NCBI RefSeq assembly: GCF_964355755.1
Contig: NC_092671.1
Span: 25,370,070 to 25,434,069, forward strand
From: Antedon mediterranea
Lineage: Eukaryota > Animalia > Echinodermata
Reading direction: 5' to 3'
DNA length: 64,000 nt
Below the pieces are notes generated by a model, which saw only the letters and a program-made list of their open reading frames with translations, was not told where the DNA came from and did not search any database. Both the position numbers and the translations under genes were made by a program. Below are positions 3,301 through 9,672 of the stretch, one piece after another. Numbering within the stretch: position 1 is the stretch's first letter; every line of letters begins with the position of its first letter.

Positions 3301-6300
3301 GTTCAGTATTTTCTATAGAATTTTATTTGATGATAAATGTTCTAACATTTAACAACAAATAAAAAAAACCTTTAAAAAGGTTTTTTTTTAGTTTATGGGA
3401 GATATCAAGTTTTAAATAAATTTAGTATTACATGCTTAAAAAGTGGCCACATCCAACTACTGGTGGTATGAGAGGTACCAAATGCATTATTAGAAAAATA
3501 ATTTGCTTACGAGAGGCACTCCGACAAGGTGGTTTAACCGTGGTCAGTTGACCTTGAGGTCAATAATAAAGTTTGACTTGACCAACTTACCTGCATGTGA
3601 AATAAGCCTTGCACCAACCAATTCACCAACCAGTGTAGTCAGATTTGGTGCGATGGCTGTCATACGATTCTTCAGGTAGTCATAAAGTTGTGCTCGATAT
3701 TCAGAGATTTCAATAATCTATAAAAAGAATAAAATAAATATTATTGATGTGGCATGTGGCATGCAAAATTGTTATATTTTCCGAAATATATAAAACATAA
3801 GTTAATGTGATTCTTTTGCAATTATTTTAGGCTCGGATCAAGCATGACTATAAAAACAAAGCATTTTATACATGCATGTTATTCATACAAGGCCAGCACA
3901 ACCGGTGTTTATGAGATTGAAAACAAGTTTGGTATGGTACCACTAAGATTATTTTCAACATACAAAAAGCAGTTGCTGATAACAATTCAAACAATATAAC
4001 TTACATTAGTATCGAGAGAAATATGTGGTTTAATAATAATACTGGTACAAAAACAAATTAGAACAACTAACCTGATCACATAGGTAAAGGATGTTTATAA
4101 TGTCATGCTCAGAGATCTCTGTACCCATTGATATCTCTGCTGCAGATTTAACCTGCTCTTCAACCTCTTCTGGTAAGATCTTTGAAAGGTCTGTGGTTGC
4201 AGTATTTGTACGATCACCTGGGAATGAAATAAATATATTTGTTTATTTGTAACCATTCATTGCCTTCCTTATTTAAAGTAAAATATGTATTAGTTCACTG
4301 CTTGGCAACAAAGGTTGATGGGAAGTAAACTGAGGAATTTTAAAAAGGGATTTTTTTGCATGATTTAAAATGAATCTATCTCAGTGGTAGTGACGAATCT
4401 CTTTTTCTAACATCACATTTAAGTCAGTCGACAGAATATACATCATTGATAGATCATTATCAATCAACAAAAGCAATGTATTTATATATACATCATTGAT
4501 AGATCATTATCAATCAACAAAAGCAATGTATTTATTAAGCAAAAGCAGCATTTTACTTATTTACTATTCCATAAGGATAATTTTTATTTTACATCCTTCT
4601 AAAAAATATACATTGGAAAAGAGAATACTACTTTCACTTTTGTATGATCAACTACTAACGCATAGCATGTTGTAGATAACCCTGTTTTTCCACAATATAG
4701 AAAAGAATTGGTAAATGCACTTATATTTCATTTGTTTAAAAAGGTAAAGGTAATCATTGTCATAACCCAACAGAGTGTATTATTTTATTAAATATGCTAA
4801 GCCTTAGGCCTTATTATCCTGGCCTAGAATTTTGTTGTTTTAGCCTAGAAAACATTGATTGAAATGGTTGTCGTGGTAGACAAAAGACATGCCGGCATTG
4901 TTTGAATGCCTACGCTAACTTTGAGAGCTGCACTGCAACTCACATACATTGACGTACCTATTGTTTTGACAGTCTTTGAGTAAGCCAAGTTATCAGTGAC
5001 AATTTTTCCAAGTTCAGGAAAATGCCATCCATACCATTCTCGACAACGCATAATATAGTTGTTTAACTCTTTGTCTAGATCATCAAGTAACGCTAAAAGA
5101 TGAATATCAAATTAAGTCAAAACAAATGATAAATGGCATGTTATTTTATTTAATACATTAAAATTTGTACTGTACTAACAAGGAAGTCTTTTTTTCAACA
5201 TAAAAATGGTAATGAATAAAAACCTTACTCCATTTAATACTACTTTAATACCAAGACAAATTTTGTCCCAAGTTAGAGTAACTTTTAAATAGATAAAGAT
5301 TTGATACATTAATTCGAGGCAGCTTTAAGCTACAGTCATCCTGGATACAGAATGGTGGTGAAAAATACAGCTAGTTTTAATACTACTTAATCGTAAAGTC
5401 GCGTGGTACAGTGGCGAGTTTGACAGAACTCTGCTCAGGCTGCAAGATTATTGGAATATGTTTCATAAAAAATGAATGGGGTAATAATGTGAAACACTTA
5501 AAAAGCTTTGTATTTAAAAGCCCTATATAAAAACAACATATTGTTTACCCTAACTCATTCCAGATTCTATACAAAACACGGTGTGAATGGTAGAAACCAC
5601 CAGACCAAATCTAGGCTAATATGAACATAGCTTTACATTCTCATAACACCTTGTCGTTTCTGATTAATGTCATTCAAGAGATTTTTTATCCCAATGAAAT
5701 ATGATAATAATAATGATAGCTATCATTTAGGTTTATACACTTACAAATGGCTTGAACAATCATGGTATCTACTTTGTCAGGAGAGAACTTCAACTTGTAT
5801 CTGGATAGACTATTTGAAGAGAAAGAGGACATCATGAGAATGGCAGTGATGGATGAATAGGTCTTAATGAAGAAAGATCATTATTTAACCTTCAATCCAG
5901 TATTCTCATTTAAATCATCTGTCCCTAGTAGTTCCTTCAAACTTTGGACATTGGTTCCCACAAGAGGAGCTTTCGAATTAGCGATACAAGGAGGCAGAAG
6001 TCCAAGTATGTCAACTATACATGCAGTTGGATGTCTTCTGCATATTGAATATTACCCGTTTCAATATTACAGGACACGATTGTCTTTGCAACACGGTCAA
6101 AAGTGCCTACATAAACTGCCTCCAGGCAATGCCAAATCCTGGAAGTTTAGTTTTATTCGTATGCATGCTGTAAATTGGATGCAAAGTTTTAAAAGATCGC
6201 TAAGTGTAGTACGCGATCAAAAGCTTTATTTTTAATGCCTGTCACAAAAGCAATAAAATGTGGTGGGTATTCAGAAATTACTGTTGGTTTTAATATTTAG

Positions 6301-9300
6301 TGTACTGTAGTTCATTATTGATATATAGTTCTTTGAACAGAAGAAGGCCGAACTATGCAACTAAGAGGCCTTAGCCTAGCCATTGTTTAGATATAAATGG
6401 CTATATGTTTACTTACCTATGTGCTAACCCCAACGTCATAGCTGTTAATTCTTTCTCTGGTAGGCCCGTTACAAGGCCTTCAAATTGTGAGCGAATACCT
6501 CGCATTAGTTCCTGTATACTGTTATTGTAAACACAATTCAAATCAAATTTTTCCTGGTCATTGAAAGAAAAAATTACAAGTCATAGATAAACTAATGATA
6601 CATTTGTAGAGGAAATATAATAGCCTAAAATATGGGCCAAACAAATTGTTGCCAAAGCAGTGTCAACATAAATTGCTGAAAAACTACTACTAGGGTAAAA
6701 ATAGAGGGTACTATAGGAATTTCACTCGTGCATGCAATTTATATTGAAAGCCCTACAAACCCTTGCAGGGACCAAGTAATTGTGAGAAAATGTGGATTTA
6801 TCTCAGTGGTAGTGACGAATCTCTTTGTCTAACATCATAGCTAAAATCAGTCAACAGAATATACATCACTGATAAACCCTTACTAGAACTTGTATTCAAT
6901 CACATCACACAATAGAACAGTGTCTACATTCTATCTTAACTGCAATGGTAAATAATGGCTTATAAAAGGACACTAAAGTATCTTGGATATACACTGCAAA
7001 AAGCATGCACGTTCTGGCTAGATCTGGATGAAAATTGAAACTTATAATGGAAGTTTTTACACAACATTTACCTTTATTATATTGCCTAGTTTGGCATCAG
7101 CTACAGCCAGCTTATCAATGGCCTCTTTTGCTGCCATCTTTTTTAACATTTTCTTCAATCCTTTACCAAGTTTACCCTCAACAGCAGCCGTGGCAGCTAA
7201 AAATAGAAAAATAAAACCTGCATTCCACACATTTTCTCTTTCAATCTCATTATTTATCACTGTTCTTAGCATCCACCACTCGGAATTTCCGATCACCACT
7301 TTTATGATGCTGACCACCAACAATTTTTTTTCTCTAAAAAACCTATTTATGTTTTAGTTATGCACACAGTATAATTAAGACACTATGGGGTTGAATTACA
7401 ATTACAATAAGCATGCTAGCCACAAAATGATCAGACAAAGGTTTTAATTTGTATCTCCATTGTTAAGTTGGCCAGCCCTAGCTTAGCATTGTTTTCAAAA
7501 CTGTGAAGGCCAGGTACTACTCATGACATGCTGGTGAGAACCCAGATTAATTTATAGATTTGACAATTTTAGCATTTGAATTGAAAAAATTTGTGATCTA
7601 ATAATTTAGCTTCATGCATGTTTATTTCTGTAGACTGTTGGATTTGGGCTATTCCAAAAGACATTCATGGGGGCCCAGCTGAATATTTGTTTACTGTACC
7701 TGCCAATGCCTCTCGAGTGTCATCAAATTTCTGGAAATGTTTGAGTTTTACTCTAAAAAATTAGAAAAATACATTTATAATTATATACTGTAAAACTAAA
7801 TATTGAAAATATGAATTCAAACTGACAAAATGTGACAAGTAACAATTTATTACAAATATATTCCACATAGAGTAGAACCCGTTCTTCATGACCCCTCAAT
7901 TCAGGGATCCTTGGTAAAAGGGAAATTTTCAAGTAAAACGAACATGGAGAAAAACCTAACCCGTATTCATAGGATGAAGGGCACAATTAATTCGTTCTTA
8001 AATATAGGTTCTACTGTACATATTGATAGAAATCACGTTTATTAGTTTTCTTTTAACTCAAAGTAGATATTCAGAGTGGATAGTTTATAATCAATTGCGC
8101 ATCAGACGGCTTTTCCTATCAAGAAAATTGACTCATCATTTCAATCTACAACCAGAGTTACTTTAAAAAAAAATGCTTCACAGAAATGCATGATGGTAAA
8201 TCACTTACACTTGGTTTGCATCGTCAATTGTTTGAAAACTTTTGTACAGGTTATCTACTTCTTTTAACTTTTTTTCATCTAGAAGCTGAAAATAAAAATA
8301 ATATACTGTTGTATAAATTGAACACAAAATAACATAGCATAAAAGAGGAAGCATTGTCTTAGTCGCACAACCTTGGCAACAGTAGCTCATCATTAAAAAT
8401 ATTTCCACGGCAAGAGGATCGCGGTTATTCACTTAAAGAGTTGTTAGGTAACTTAAGCTCGGCATACAGTATTTGCCATCTAATTTTTCGACTGTGATTA
8501 CAACATCGTTTTATAATTTTTTATACTGTAGACACTAGATCTGCAATTGTTGACGTTTTGCAAAAATAATGCATATATATTTAAAATTTAAAAACATTAA
8601 CCCAGGTTATTTCTTGTCTTAAATGTGTGTTCTAAGGTTAATTATGATAAAAAGAAAACAATGCACTAAGTAGCTTACATCGAAAGTTCTATCGTAGACG
8701 TTTGTAGGCCTAGCTTAGTTGTGTGGCAGTAACATACAAACATCGTATGTATTTATTTTTACATAAAATATAATCCGTGACCTTAAATTAGGAAAAAAAA
8801 CTATAGGTCTAGTGTCTTTAACATTATTCTGTCAAGTTATTAATGTTACTTGTATTATATCAAGGTTTGGTTTATCAAATACAACAAAAATATCAAAACA
8901 TTGAATTGTGGAGTATCTCTATTAAAATTTCGCAAGAAAATGCTTGTGCAATTTCAAATTTCGTAAATCATACAGATGTCACTAGACCTCGACAAGGCAT
9001 TTTTAGAAAAATTTCTCAAGCCACCGTGGAGCCCTTTAAAAATGTTTTGTGGCCCAAATTTGGGCAATTGGCAAGTAAAGTCTGCCTATTCCATTGTACT
9101 CAATAAAGGAAATATGGCAAGTAAATGATTAATTTATGAATGAGTTTATTTAAATGATATCTGGGACATCACAAATTGATCAAATATCATGGTTTTGCTG
9201 CTTCTGTGGAAAATAAATAAAGTGTTAGCCCTACTCTAGAAATCATGACACCATCATACAAAAATATCAGCAAAAAATGAGTGATCAGAAATCAACTTGA

Positions 9301-9672
9301 ACAATCAATTACGCATCAGACGGCTTTTCCTATCAAGAAAATAAATTTCATCATTTCACTCAATAAAATCTTTCTAAATTTAGCCTTTTACTTGATGGCA
9401 TCCTATGATCATGGAGGTATAAAATAAATTTTATACCTCCATGCTATGATGGCCATCCTGCCCAACCACGTGCCTCATCCCAAACGGCAGCATGCCTCAT
9501 GCCTGGCATTGCCATTATGTTATTGTATGTTTTAGGCTAGCTAGGCCTGGCCCTTTTTAGTCTAATAATTATATTCAATCAAGCTGTTTAAACATAAAGT
9601 TATAATGTTTATATTTATTATATTTACCTTAAATACAGCGTATCCTGCCGGCGATTCGAATAACACCAACAT
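339..9672 (-). CDS. NOP58: Nucleolar protein 58 (box C/D snoRNP core protein), 14 coding exons, about 532 aa
   Basis: Exons in transcript order: 9628-9672, 8209-8285, 7700-7752, 7072-7196, 6417-6553, 5745-5809, 4958-5092, 4072-4217, 3591-3717, 2945-3108, 1996-2130, 1440-1689, 1136-1215, 339-398. All introns are GT-AG and the exons sum to 1599 nt in frame. Peptides: [92 protein letters not shown] (Nop domain), and a K/E-rich tail ending EED*. Confidence 0.97.
1758..1962 (+). mobile_element. tRNA-derived SINE in NOP58 intron 11
   Basis: A box TGGCCGAGTGG and B box GGTTCAAGAC, followed by a non-tRNA body (GGTAAGGACTATGAACCGTAGGTC...GAGTAGGGGG). No closed cloverleaf. Confidence 0.7.
2440..2680 (-). 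mobile_element. Degenerate SINE copy (same family as 35590-35898)
   Basis: Shares GCAGCTAGTAATCAGCGC, GTACCCATT, GAGAGAGGCAAAC and GCAATGC...TTGGATT with the 35.7 kb copy. Confidence 0.6.
2683..2779. repeat. Short inverted-repeat element (MITE-like)
   Basis: Imperfect terminal inverted repeat GACCAATTTACAGACA ... TGTGTGTAAATGGTC. Confidence 0.45.
4374..4454 (-). ncRNA. SNORD70: Box C/D snoRNA, SNORD70-like (guide for the 18S rRNA Am512 equivalent), NOP58 intron 7
   Basis: Minus strand reads ATCTATC-A-ATGATGT(C)...CTGA(D')...GTGATGT(C')...ATTCGTCACTACCA-CTGA(D)-GATAGAT with a terminal stem. The guide TTCGTCACTACC is complementary to conserved 18S GGTAGTGACGAA, and the D+5 rule selects the A. 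It matches the recalled SNORD70 3' end. Confidence 0.9.
4436..4535. repeat. Exact 50-bp tandem duplication including the snoRNA C box
   Basis: ATATACATCATTGATAGATCATTATCAATCAACAAAAGCAATGTATTTAT occurs at 4436-4485 and again at 4486-4535. Confidence 0.9.
5827..5924 (-). ncRNA. K-turn (C/D-like) capped long hairpin abutting the 3' splice site of NOP58 intron 5; cis-regulatory element or orphan snoRNA
   Basis: RNA reads GGACA-GAU-GAUU ... AUGA-UGUCC: a 5-bp stem, a 3-nt bulge, then G.A, A.G, U.U and U-A pairs. Interior pairings are AUGAGAAU/AUUCUCAU, UGGA/UCCA, UGAA/UUCA, AGGU/ACCU and UAAUGA/UCAUUA. It ends 15 nt before the acceptor AG. Confidence 0.6.
6797..6876 (-). ncRNA. SNORD70: Box C/D snoRNA, SNORD70-like paralog, NOP58 intron 4
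   Basis: TTTATC-A-GTGATGT(C)...CTGA(D')...ATGATGT(C')...ATTCGTCACTACCA-CTGA(D)-GATAAA. Same 18S guide as 4374-4454, with its own terminal stem. Confidence 0.9.
8063..8149 (-). ncRNA. SNORD49: Box C/D snoRNA, SNORD49 (U49)-like (guide for the 28S Cm4456/Cm4426 equivalent), NOP58 intron 2
   Basis: GTAGAT stem, ATGATGA (C), TGATAGGAAAAGCCGT-CTGA (guide plus D'), CTGA (D), ATCTAC stem. The guide is complementary (14/15) to conserved 28S CGGCTCTTCCTATCA near the peptidyl-transferase centre. Confidence 0.85.
8545..8820 (+). mobile_element. Shorter diverged relative of the Kolobok-like element family (16322, 34098)
   Basis: Shares GACGTTTTG..AAAATAAT, CTTGTCTTAAATGT, ATTATGATAAAAAG and TTAAATTAG blocks. 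Ends AGACACTAGATCT ... AGGTCTAGTGTCT are inverted. Confidence 0.6.
9278..9362 (-). ncRNA. SNORD49: Box C/D snoRNA, SNORD49 (U49)-like paralog, NOP58 intron 1
   Basis: TGAGTGA stem, ATGATGA (C), TTCTTGATAGGAAAAGCCGT-CTGA (D'), CTGA (D), TCACTCA stem. Core nearly identical to 8063-8149. Confidence 0.85.

What the first reader, a model, noticed from the sequence alone, without database searches (positions are those of the whole stretch)
5810..5930. K-turn hairpin masking the branch point of NOP58 intron 5: candidate box C/D snoRNP autoregulatory switch
Seen: the last 115 nt of intron 5 fold into a long hairpin closed by canonical K-turn geometry (GGACA-GAU-GAUU / AUGA-UGUCC). The usual C-box G : D-box C pair is replaced by a compensatory U-A. 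The stem ends only 15 nt before the acceptor AG, whereas the four ordinary snoRNAs in this gene sit more than 150 nt from their acceptors. The best branch-point match (UUCUCAU, A at -26) is the first base of the D-like box and can alternatively pair with AUGAGAAU, giving two competing folds. The downstream exon is 65 nt, so skipping it shifts the frame. I recognise no rRNA guide in it. Known: SNU13/15.5K binds K-turns and recruits NOP58, and human NOP56 is autoregulated by the cis-acting intronic SNORD86. Inference: excess SNU13/NOP58 assembling here would block U2 recognition and route NOP58 pre-mRNA to retention or skipping and NMD. This would be a 3' splice-site counterpart of the SNORD86 circuit that I do not know to be described.
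Basis: partly seen in the sequence, partly recalled or inferred. Interest (0 to 1): 0.82.

Follow-up and report, generated by a model that had tools for sequence, protein, structure and literature searches.

The report
Guide-dead snoRNA over NOP58 splice acceptor
The end of an intron in this animal's NOP58 gene carries a small-nucleolar-RNA-like fold, likely a worn-out copy of SNORD70, that overlaps the splicing signals and would, if the snoRNP proteins bind it as predicted, let the cell turn down production of one of those same proteins.

Summary
The motif is real, on the minus strand. A strict box C/D K-turn pattern gave 5 hits in 64 kb, both strands: three ordinary NOP58 snoRNAs (one counted twice) and this element. 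Intron and exon bounds are bridged by a spliced contig. No rRNA guide was found in the parts of rRNA I could test, and Rfam has no match. A 10-of-13 remnant of the SNORD70 guide, plus SNORD70 in intron 5 of 3 of 13 other loci, points to a decayed SNORD70 copy. New here: its two guide arms pair with each other as in SNORD86, an outer stem covers the polypyrimidine tract, and an upstream hairpin competes for the K-turn stem. The U-A change removes the bases Nop5/NOP58 reads. The same U-A occurs in paralogous snoRNA-like copies elsewhere. 0 of 13 orthologous introns (all divergent in sequence) have a K-turn at the acceptor. A second animal's NOP58 has a U-A K-turn beside a poison donor. A cis switch (0.40) narrowly leads a neutral relic (0.33); regulation is untested.

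The parts
5826..5925 (-). box C/D-like element closed by a K-turn (6-bp terminal stem, 3 GC)
   Evidence: descriptor scan; sequence
5912..5918 (-). box C-like AUGAUUU (5 of 7 to RUGAUGA; last GA lost)
   Evidence: sequence
5832..5835 (-). box D-like AUGA; A5835 (-26) is the best branch-point candidate in the usual window, and A5832 (-23) is also branch-point-like (my reading)
   Evidence: sequence
5920..5925 (-). 5' arm of the K-turn terminal stem; can pair with 5831-5826 or with the upstream competitor 5950-5946
5826..5831 (-). 3' arm of the terminal stem, start of the polypyrimidine tract
5902..5909 (-). D'-guide-position arm that pairs over 8 bp with 5841-5834 (D guide end plus first two bases of box D)
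   Evidence: pair probabilities 0.83-0.97; 62 of 20000 shuffles
5850..5899 (-). inner hairpin holding possible D' (5900-5897 or 5895-5892) and C' (5881-5875) boxes; box assignment is my reading
5841..5853 (-). remnant of the SNORD70 guide, 10 of 13 identical, three transitions, shifted 5 nt from box D
5935..5941 (-). 5' arm of predicted outer stem (7 Watson-Crick pairs with 5819-5813)
   Evidence: marginal against shuffles, 70 and 41 of 1000
5813..5819 (-). 3' arm of the outer stem, in the polypyrimidine tract, ending at -4
5946..5950 (-). upstream copy of UGUCC; closes a predicted competing hairpin 5950-5920 that forms first in a growing transcript
   Evidence: 675 of 20000 shuffles
5977..5983 (-). 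alternative distal branch-point candidate (A5978, -169)
   Evidence: top U2-pairing score in the last 200 nt
5810..6416 (-). NOP58 intron 5 (607 nt)
   Evidence: joint 5809/6417 in X1
5745..5809 (-). NOP58 exon 6 (65 nt; skipping shifts the frame, stop at codon 149)
6417..6553 (-). NOP58 exon 5
6791..6882 (-). SNORD70 copy in intron 4 (context, likely paralogue)
   Evidence: Rfam RF00575 51.4 bits
4369..4458 (-). SNORD70 copy in intron 7 (context, likely paralogue)
   Evidence: Rfam RF00575 55 bits
8069..8143 (-). SNORD49-like snoRNA in intron 2 (context)
   Evidence: 32.5 bits, below gathering 37
9283..9358 (-). SNORD49-like snoRNA in intron 1 (context)
   Evidence: 31.8 bits, below gathering 37

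Best explanation
The last 135 bases of NOP58 intron 5 hold a box C/D K-turn motif whose box D overlaps the likeliest branch point; it is likely a SNORD70 copy that lost its guide role and is predicted to act in cis, where SNU13-containing snoRNP precursors would lock it shut over the branch point and polypyrimidine tract and would send the pre-mRNA to exon-6 skipping or intron retention and nonsense-mediated decay. Shown: the motif, its position, the splice bounds and the early stops. Predicted by folding: without protein, an upstream hairpin (5950-5920) forms first and leaves most of the pyrimidine tract free, while the D' and D guide arms pair as in SNORD86's protein-free form. The long stem that the K-turn needs covers the tract to -4 and is about 3 kcal/mol more stable at equilibrium. 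Inferred: SNU13 binds the intact G.A/A.G core. NOP58 binds weakly at best because its contact bases are gone, which would make a low-affinity sensor that fills only when core proteins are in excess. Protein binding would tip the race towards the closed form.
For: The K-turn descriptor hits only snoRNAs and this element in the window (5 hits; shuffle mean 0.83 at stem >=5 and 0.03 at stem >=6 with >=3 GC), with 0 antisense hits in 121,591 bases of other loci. Both boxes changed at the one paired position and stayed paired (U-A), while the guide decayed. The guide arms pair over 8 bp (62 of 20000; controls 3-4 bp), matching the review account of SNORD86. This is the strongest-folding of 13 intron ends. 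A mutually exclusive upstream hairpin lies 2.8-3.3 kcal/mol above the ensemble. SNORD70 origin: internal sequence against 12 SNORD70 copies gives z 2.4-3.8 under 4 scoring schemes (0-22 of 1000 shuffles); the guide match near box D is reached by 14 of 20000 shuffles; 12 other snoRNA copies give z <=0.98; SNORD70 lies in intron 5 in 3 of 13 loci. L035 has a non-Rfam U-A K-turn with the same box letters, between the normal donor and a donor 151 nt downstream. That donor scores 8 of 9, the best of 32 descriptor hits, and the extension holds a stop.
Against: 0 of 13 orthologous intron-5 ends have the strict motif within 45 nt of the acceptor; 8 have >=130 nt to inspect, and the flanking exons are divergent (exon 5 peptides 44-67% identical where held). 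The bases NOP58 is thought to read are lost. U-A at this pair also occurs in 2 of 3 paralogous snoRNA-like copies in L035 intron 5, so it does not mark a regulator. A5835 is paired in every predicted fold, and the K-turn form is 6.7-7.1 kcal/mol above the ensemble in a model that has no K-turn or protein term. Opening the last 33 nt costs 12.7 kcal/mol, only 3rd of 13 introns. The outer stem (70 and 41 of 1000) and the competitor (675 of 20000) are marginal and were found after the fact. A SNORD70 covariance model misses the element at E<=10, the non-guide part shows no likeness (291 of 1000), and the 13-mer with 3 mismatches is at chance level window-wide (15 seen, 13.9 expected). The L035 element is not similar in sequence (828-930 of 1000 shuffles as good), a U-A hit of its stem length arises at 0.029 per shuffle of that locus, and its donors do not change exposure between folds. 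If free SNU13 alone bound, repression of NOP58 would run against stoichiometric logic (inference).
Confidence: 0.4

Rival explanations
1. Neutral relic: a decaying SNORD70 (or other C/D) pseudogene that deletions left beside the acceptor. It still looks like a K-turn because decay is incomplete, and splicing ignores it.
For: snoRNA copies differ in position between NOP58 genes. The L010 intron-5 SNORD70 copy also has a degenerate box C. snoRNA pseudogenes are common in animals (PMC11028025, text part 2). There is no conservation at the acceptor in 13 loci, the opening cost is unremarkable, and NOP58 contacts are lost.
Against: Two paired positions both changed and still pair. New 8-bp guide-guide pairing. 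The strongest fold of 13 intron ends sits on splice signals, where a useless structure should be selected against (inference).
Confidence: 0.33
2. An expressed orphan box C/D snoRNA with a new or unknown target, released after debranching and assembled without splicing thanks to its long outer stem.
For: The C, D, possible C' and D' boxes and a terminal stem are all present. U-A terminal motifs occur in paralogous snoRNA-like copies in L035. Long external stems allow splicing-independent assembly (PMC5519232, passage). The 3' third of the large-subunit rRNA and the snRNAs were not tested.
Against: No duplex above chance next to a box: longest 13 with G-U, reached by 4 of 40 shuffles, and that one not placed at box D or D'. 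The guides pair with each other. Human C/D snoRNAs lie about 50 nt upstream of the branch point, whereas this box D overlaps it.
Confidence: 0.12
3. Chance arrangement of AU-rich sequence and a pyrimidine tract that pairs with a purine-rich stretch.
For: Folding z is modest. Descriptor hits with 4-5 bp stems outside recognised snoRNAs occur in other loci (4 of 33 hits). The SNORD70 model and Rfam find nothing.
Against: 11 of 5000 and 1 of 5000 local shuffles. The only non-snoRNA hit in 128 kb of strands falls in a snoRNA host gene. Guide remnant 14 of 20000.
Confidence: 0.1
4. A 5'-tailed mirtron-like hairpin whose 3' arm is the last 22 nt of the intron.
For: The predicted outer and terminal stems end three bases before the intron end.
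Against: The loop would be about 90 nt and the stem has a 5-nt bulge. It does not explain the K-turn. No Rfam microRNA match of note.
Confidence: 0.03

Closest known systems
SNORD86 in human NOP56 (Lykke-Andersen et al. 2018; not held, known here from review passages PMC7038934 and PMC11028025)
   Same: Orphan C/D-type RNA in an intron of a snoRNP core-protein gene. D and D' guides pair in the protein-free form. The alternative outcome would be an NMD substrate.
   Different: SNORD86 chooses between two donors; this element covers a branch point and acceptor. Its boxes are non-canonical at the NOP58 contact. The host is NOP58. No conservation or regulation is shown.
SNORD2 in EIF4A2 (PMC10324135, passages; PMC11028025, passages)
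   Same: A C/D snoRNA fold hides the branch point, the next exon is skipped, and a premature stop leads to NMD.
   Different: There an ordinary snoRNA pairs with downstream intron, and the host is not a snoRNP protein. Here box D itself is the branch-point candidate, and the K-turn form is the closed one.
SNORD70 (Rfam RF00575; human SNORD70 and 70B in NOP58, 18S-512, PMC4914119 supplement rows)
   Same: Same host gene; found in the same intron in 3 of 13 other loci; 10 of 13 guide letters.
   Different: The guide is broken and shifted 5 nt from box D, the element is about 20 nt longer, the boxes are altered, and neither Rfam nor a 12-sequence model detects it.
K-turn autoregulation by L7Ae-family proteins: yeast Rpl30 on its own pre-mRNA 5' splice site, archaeal L7Ae on its 5' UTR (both recalled, no call)
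   Same: A protein-bound K-turn in a transcript limits expression.
   Different: Those proteins regulate their own gene. Here SNU13 would act on its partner's gene, at the 3' splice site.

Membership tests
box C/D-type K-turn | terminal helix, 3-nt bulge ending in U, tandem G.A/A.G, U.U, then a Watson-Crick pair | tested here: met
   sequence
box C/D-type K-turn | binds SNU13/15.5K | not testable with these tools
   needs a gel shift
box C/D guide snoRNA | box C RUGAUGA and box D CUGA (NOP58 contact bases) | tested here: not met
   AUGAUUU and AUGA; contact bases per PMC5389607 passage
box C/D guide snoRNA | 10-21 nt antisense to rRNA or snRNA directly upstream of D or D' | tested here: inconclusive
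   none in five 18S, one 5.8S and LSU model positions 1-2291 of 3401, while both SNORD70 controls gave 12 bp; SNORD49-like controls were also not recovered; the LSU 3' third and snRNAs were not available
box C/D guide snoRNA | lies about 50 nt upstream of the branch point | tested here: not met
   box D at -26 to -23 against PMC5519232 passage; assumes the branch point is at 5835 or 5832
box C/D guide snoRNA | accumulates as a discrete small RNA | not testable with these tools
   only contigs were available
SNORD70 (RF00575) | scores with the family model | tested here: not met
   no Rfam hit at E<=10; own model R1 no hit at E<=10
SNORD70 (RF00575) | intact 18S guide adjacent to box D | tested here: not met
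   10 of 13, shifted 5 nt
SNORD70 (RF00575) | descent from a SNORD70 copy | tested here: inconclusive
   guide remnant 14 of 20000 near D, 104 of 20000 anywhere; remainder 291 of 1000; 6 families were tried
SNORD86-type cis autoregulator | host gene encodes a box C/D core protein | tested here: met
SNORD86-type cis autoregulator | protein-free form with D and D' guides paired, distinct from the snoRNP form | tested here: met
   predicted only:
SNORD86-type cis autoregulator | adjacent alternative splicing to an NMD substrate | tested here: inconclusive
   early stops follow from sequence; contigs cannot show rare forms
SNORD86-type cis autoregulator | conserved in the clade | tested here: inconclusive
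   0 of 13 divergent loci; no close relative was reachable
SNORD86-type cis autoregulator | splicing responds to core-protein level through the element | not testable with these tools
   needs minigene and knockdown
transposon or dispersed repeat | further genomic copies | tested here: not met
   in three contig sets of one sample laid at 80% likeness only one contig covers 5810-5930, while a repeat at 5456-5511 drew many; contigs show presence, not absence

The most novel reading that the evidence does not exclude
NOP58 has its own snoRNP feedback switch, built by re-using a dead SNORD70 copy whose box D became the branch point of intron 5. A U-A-weakened K-turn works as a threshold sensor that closes over the 3' splice site. 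Animals have evolved such U-A K-turn switches in NOP58 more than once (L035 intron 4, at a donor), so SNORD86-style control would be a recurring design rather than a eutherian NOP56 one-off.
Probability: 0.3. Interest if true: 0.78.

Novelty: new variant of a known kind. Interest (0 to 1): 0.5.

Why it matters
How cells balance NOP56, NOP58, SNU13 and fibrillarin is explained, in the reviews I read, only for NOP56 and only in placental mammals. A switch in NOP58 acting at the acceptor would extend that circuit to the partner protein. It would also give a traceable case of a snoRNA pseudogene becoming a cis-regulator, and a simple search pattern: U-A K-turns next to splice sites in snoRNP genes. 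If it is a relic, it is an ordinary example of snoRNA turnover.

Tried and rejected
No whole genome is held for the window, so no genome-wide scan was possible.

Sequencing runs: no RNA holder listed on record. X1 is guessed to be RNA and holds a spliced contig. X2-X5 are one sample and may be the source of the window. In X1 no contig skips exon 6 or spans the whole of intron 5. One unspliced contig covers 5858-6177, and other introns have such pieces too. Contigs drop rare forms and NMD would deplete them, so I count this neither way. X1 shows no letter differences over 5858-6177, so there is no polymorphism test.

No protein homolog list was obtained. The search for related loci with exon 6 was too short a query. 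Rfam gave nothing for the element or for the L035 element. The SNORD70 model R1 missed it. A 13-bp duplex with one of five 18S sequences (L044) ends 3 nt before box D but is absent from the other four and within the chance range, so I rejected it. The 3' third of the large-subunit rRNA could not be fetched (empty). Direct homology to the L035 element was rejected. Covariation could not be tested, since there is one sequence.

Lykke-Andersen 2018 and Watkins 2002 are not held. PMC10557570 had none of my terms. PMC12218528 (abstract and passages) was not relevant. An in-frame ATG ATG at 5835 upstream of exon 6, and an alternative AG at 5864-5863, were noted but not supported by any search.

Full report
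Setting. The finding lies on the minus strand, in a 14-exon gene (the last two exon bounds in my model are approximate) whose exon 7 matches NOP58 better than NOP56. Rfam finds two SNORD70 copies above threshold and two SNORD49-like RNAs below it, and nothing at 5810-5930. One contig of run X1 (guessed RNA) joins exons 5, 6 and 7 at the predicted places. Human NOP58 hosts SNORD70, 70B, 11 and 11B in the one supplementary file of PMC4914119 that I could search. That file was cut when stored, and 2 other files were not searched.

The observation. The K-turn geometry, the U-A pair, the 15-nt distance, A at -26 and the 65-nt exon are all as stated. My descriptor asked for a terminal stem of at least 5 bp, an N-R-U bulge, GA.GA, U.U and any Watson-Crick pair next, 40-130 nt apart. 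It gave 5 hits on the minus strand and 0 on the plus strand of 64 kb: one SNORD49-like RNA, both SNORD70s (one counted twice because of a 50-nt duplication) and this element. It missed the second SNORD49-like RNA. Shuffled strands gave 0.83 hits on average, or 0.03 at this element's stem quality. Local shuffles gave 11 and 1 of 5000. The last 135 nt are the most stably folded of 13 intron ends (z -2.61, 1 of 150). The feature is therefore probably real.

(1) An 8-bp helix pairs the stretch after box C with the end of the D guide and the first two bases of box D (probability 0.83-0.97; 62 of 20000 shuffles; 3-4 bp in the four ordinary snoRNAs). A review describes D-D' guide pairing as the protein-free form of SNORD86 (PMC7038934, passage). 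(2) An outer stem, 5941-5935 with 5819-5813, extends the hairpin over the pyrimidine tract; this is marginal (70 and 41 of 1000). (3) The stem's 3' arm recurs upstream at 5950-5946 and closes a hairpin that takes both 5' arms. It appears first in a growing transcript, lies 2.8-3.3 kcal/mol above the ensemble, and frees the last 15 nt (675 of 20000; absent in 3 of 3 ordinary snoRNAs checked). The K-turn form costs 6.7-7.1 kcal/mol in a model that has no term for K-turns or protein. (5) Opening the last 33 nt costs 12.7 kcal/mol, third of 13 introns. (6) By U2 pairing a distal candidate, A5978, scores slightly higher than A5835.

Origin. A pattern scan of metagenome contigs returned 36 NOP58 loci. 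Of these, 22 lack intron 5, 1 has no upstream DNA and 13 have the intron (two identical there). None of the 13 has the strict motif within 45 nt of the acceptor, and one has a weak relaxed hit. Eight have at least 130 nt to inspect, four introns are only 50-58 nt, and one is cut at 72. Three carry SNORD70 there, 67-92 nt from the acceptor. The element's interior aligns to 12 SNORD70 copies better than its shuffles do (z 2.4-3.8), and not to 12 copies of five other families (z -2.1 to 0.98). The signal is all in a 10-of-13 guide remnant with three transitions (14 of 20000 near box D). The rest shows none (291 of 1000), a covariance model misses the element, and such a 13-mer match is at chance level across the window. 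SNORD70 descent is thus likely but not shown. The remnant is shifted 5 nt from box D, so it would not direct the SNORD70 methylation. No other guide was found in five 18S, one 5.8S and two thirds of one large-subunit rRNA, from unidentified eukaryotes. The rest of the large subunit and the snRNAs were not tested.

Which protein. PMC5389607 (passage) states, from archaeal structures, that the GA pairs and the bulged U form the L7Ae/Snu13 site, and that the only base-specific Nop5 contacts are the C of box D and the last GA of box C. The element keeps the first set and has lost the second. It is therefore a predicted SNU13 site with weak NOP58 assembly at best. SNU13 and NOP58 form a protein-only precursor (PMC5519232, passage), so a weak site could still fill when that complex is in excess; this is inference. 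U-A at this pair is not unique: two of three paralogous snoRNA-like copies in L035 intron 5 have it, and the third has C-G.

A second case. In L035, intron 4 opens with a hairpin closed by the same box letters (AUGAUUUAA, AUGA). It lies between the normal donor and a stronger donor 151 nt downstream. That donor is the best of 32 descriptor hits (8 of 9), and the extension contains a stop. This is the SNORD86 layout, in NOP58. It has no Rfam match and no sequence likeness to our element or to SNORD70. It could be chance (0.029 such hits per shuffle of the locus, before counting the donor), and folding shows no change in donor exposure. It is a lead, not confirmation.

Mechanism and rivals. I favour, narrowly (0.40), a guide-dead SNORD70 copy kept as a cis element. 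Protein-free, the upstream hairpin would leave the tract open long enough for splicing. Bound by SNU13-containing precursors, the K-turn would lock the long stem over the branch point and tract, giving skipping or retention with stops at codons 149 or 147 and NMD. A neutral relic is close behind (0.33), then an orphan snoRNA (0.12), chance (0.10) and a tailed mirtron (0.03). The RNA contigs cannot decide between them.

What is known. SNORD86/NOP56 is known to me only through review passages, as the paper is not held. Branch-point masking by a host snoRNA with skipping and NMD is described for SNORD2/EIF4A2 (PMC10324135, passages). Pairing of snoRNAs with branch point or tract is reported as frequent (PMC12645875, passages). 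Nine full-text searches (listings, plus the passages named) showed no report of a K-turn switch in NOP58. The library lacks most subscription papers and I could not see bioRxiv supplements, so this is weak evidence of novelty. One earlier scan note on a fungal NOP58 intron (e1-7646980) concerns a different structure and was not tested.

Verdict. A real box C/D K-turn motif in an unusual place, probably of snoRNA origin, that resembles SNORD86 in design but is not shown to regulate anything. New variant of a known kind; interest 0.5.

Noticed in passing
L035:5057-5207 (minus strand; intron 4 start): U-A type K-turn hairpin with the same box letters as the window element, between the normal donor and a stronger donor 151 nt downstream; the extension holds a stop. 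SNORD86-like layout in another animal's NOP58.
   Followed up: partly
L035:3172-3281, 3817-3926, 4282-4391 (minus strand; intron 5): Three paralogous C/D snoRNA-like copies, no Rfam hit, whose pair next to the U.U is U-A, U-A and C-G rather than G-C: natural covariation at that position. No target found in the rRNA tested.
   Followed up: partly
window 4436-4535: Exact 50-nt tandem duplication that copies the 5' stem and box C of the intron-7 SNORD70, giving it two possible 5' ends.
   Followed up: no
window 8069-8143 and 9283-9358: Two SNORD49-like snoRNAs below Rfam's threshold. All four ordinary snoRNAs here lie 163-999 nt from their acceptors, farther than the 43-106 nt seen for most copies in other loci.
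   Followed up: partly
L003:653-728, L012 and L020 intron 4 (oriented coordinates): Canonical C/D motifs in NOP58 intron 4 with differing D guides and no Rfam hit; possibly an undescribed family.
   Followed up: no
L010:1953-2041: SNORD70 copy in intron 5 with a degenerate box C (AUGAUUA) and canonical box D: a possible early stage of the same decay.
   Followed up: no
window 5456-5511: Short dispersed repeat of about 40 nt in intron 6, with many copies in the DNA contig sets; other repeats at about 1757-1954 and 8530-8800.
   Followed up: no
window 5835-5810 and 5864-5863: The box D-like ATG is in frame with exon 6 with no stop between; an AG after a pyrimidine run inside the inner hairpin could be an alternative acceptor adding 53 nt.
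   Followed up: no
L037-L048: Eukaryotic rRNA motif in 12 contigs filed under prokaryotic genome assemblies; 9 of 9 scanned carry eukaryotic SSU rRNA, presumably contamination.
   Followed up: partly
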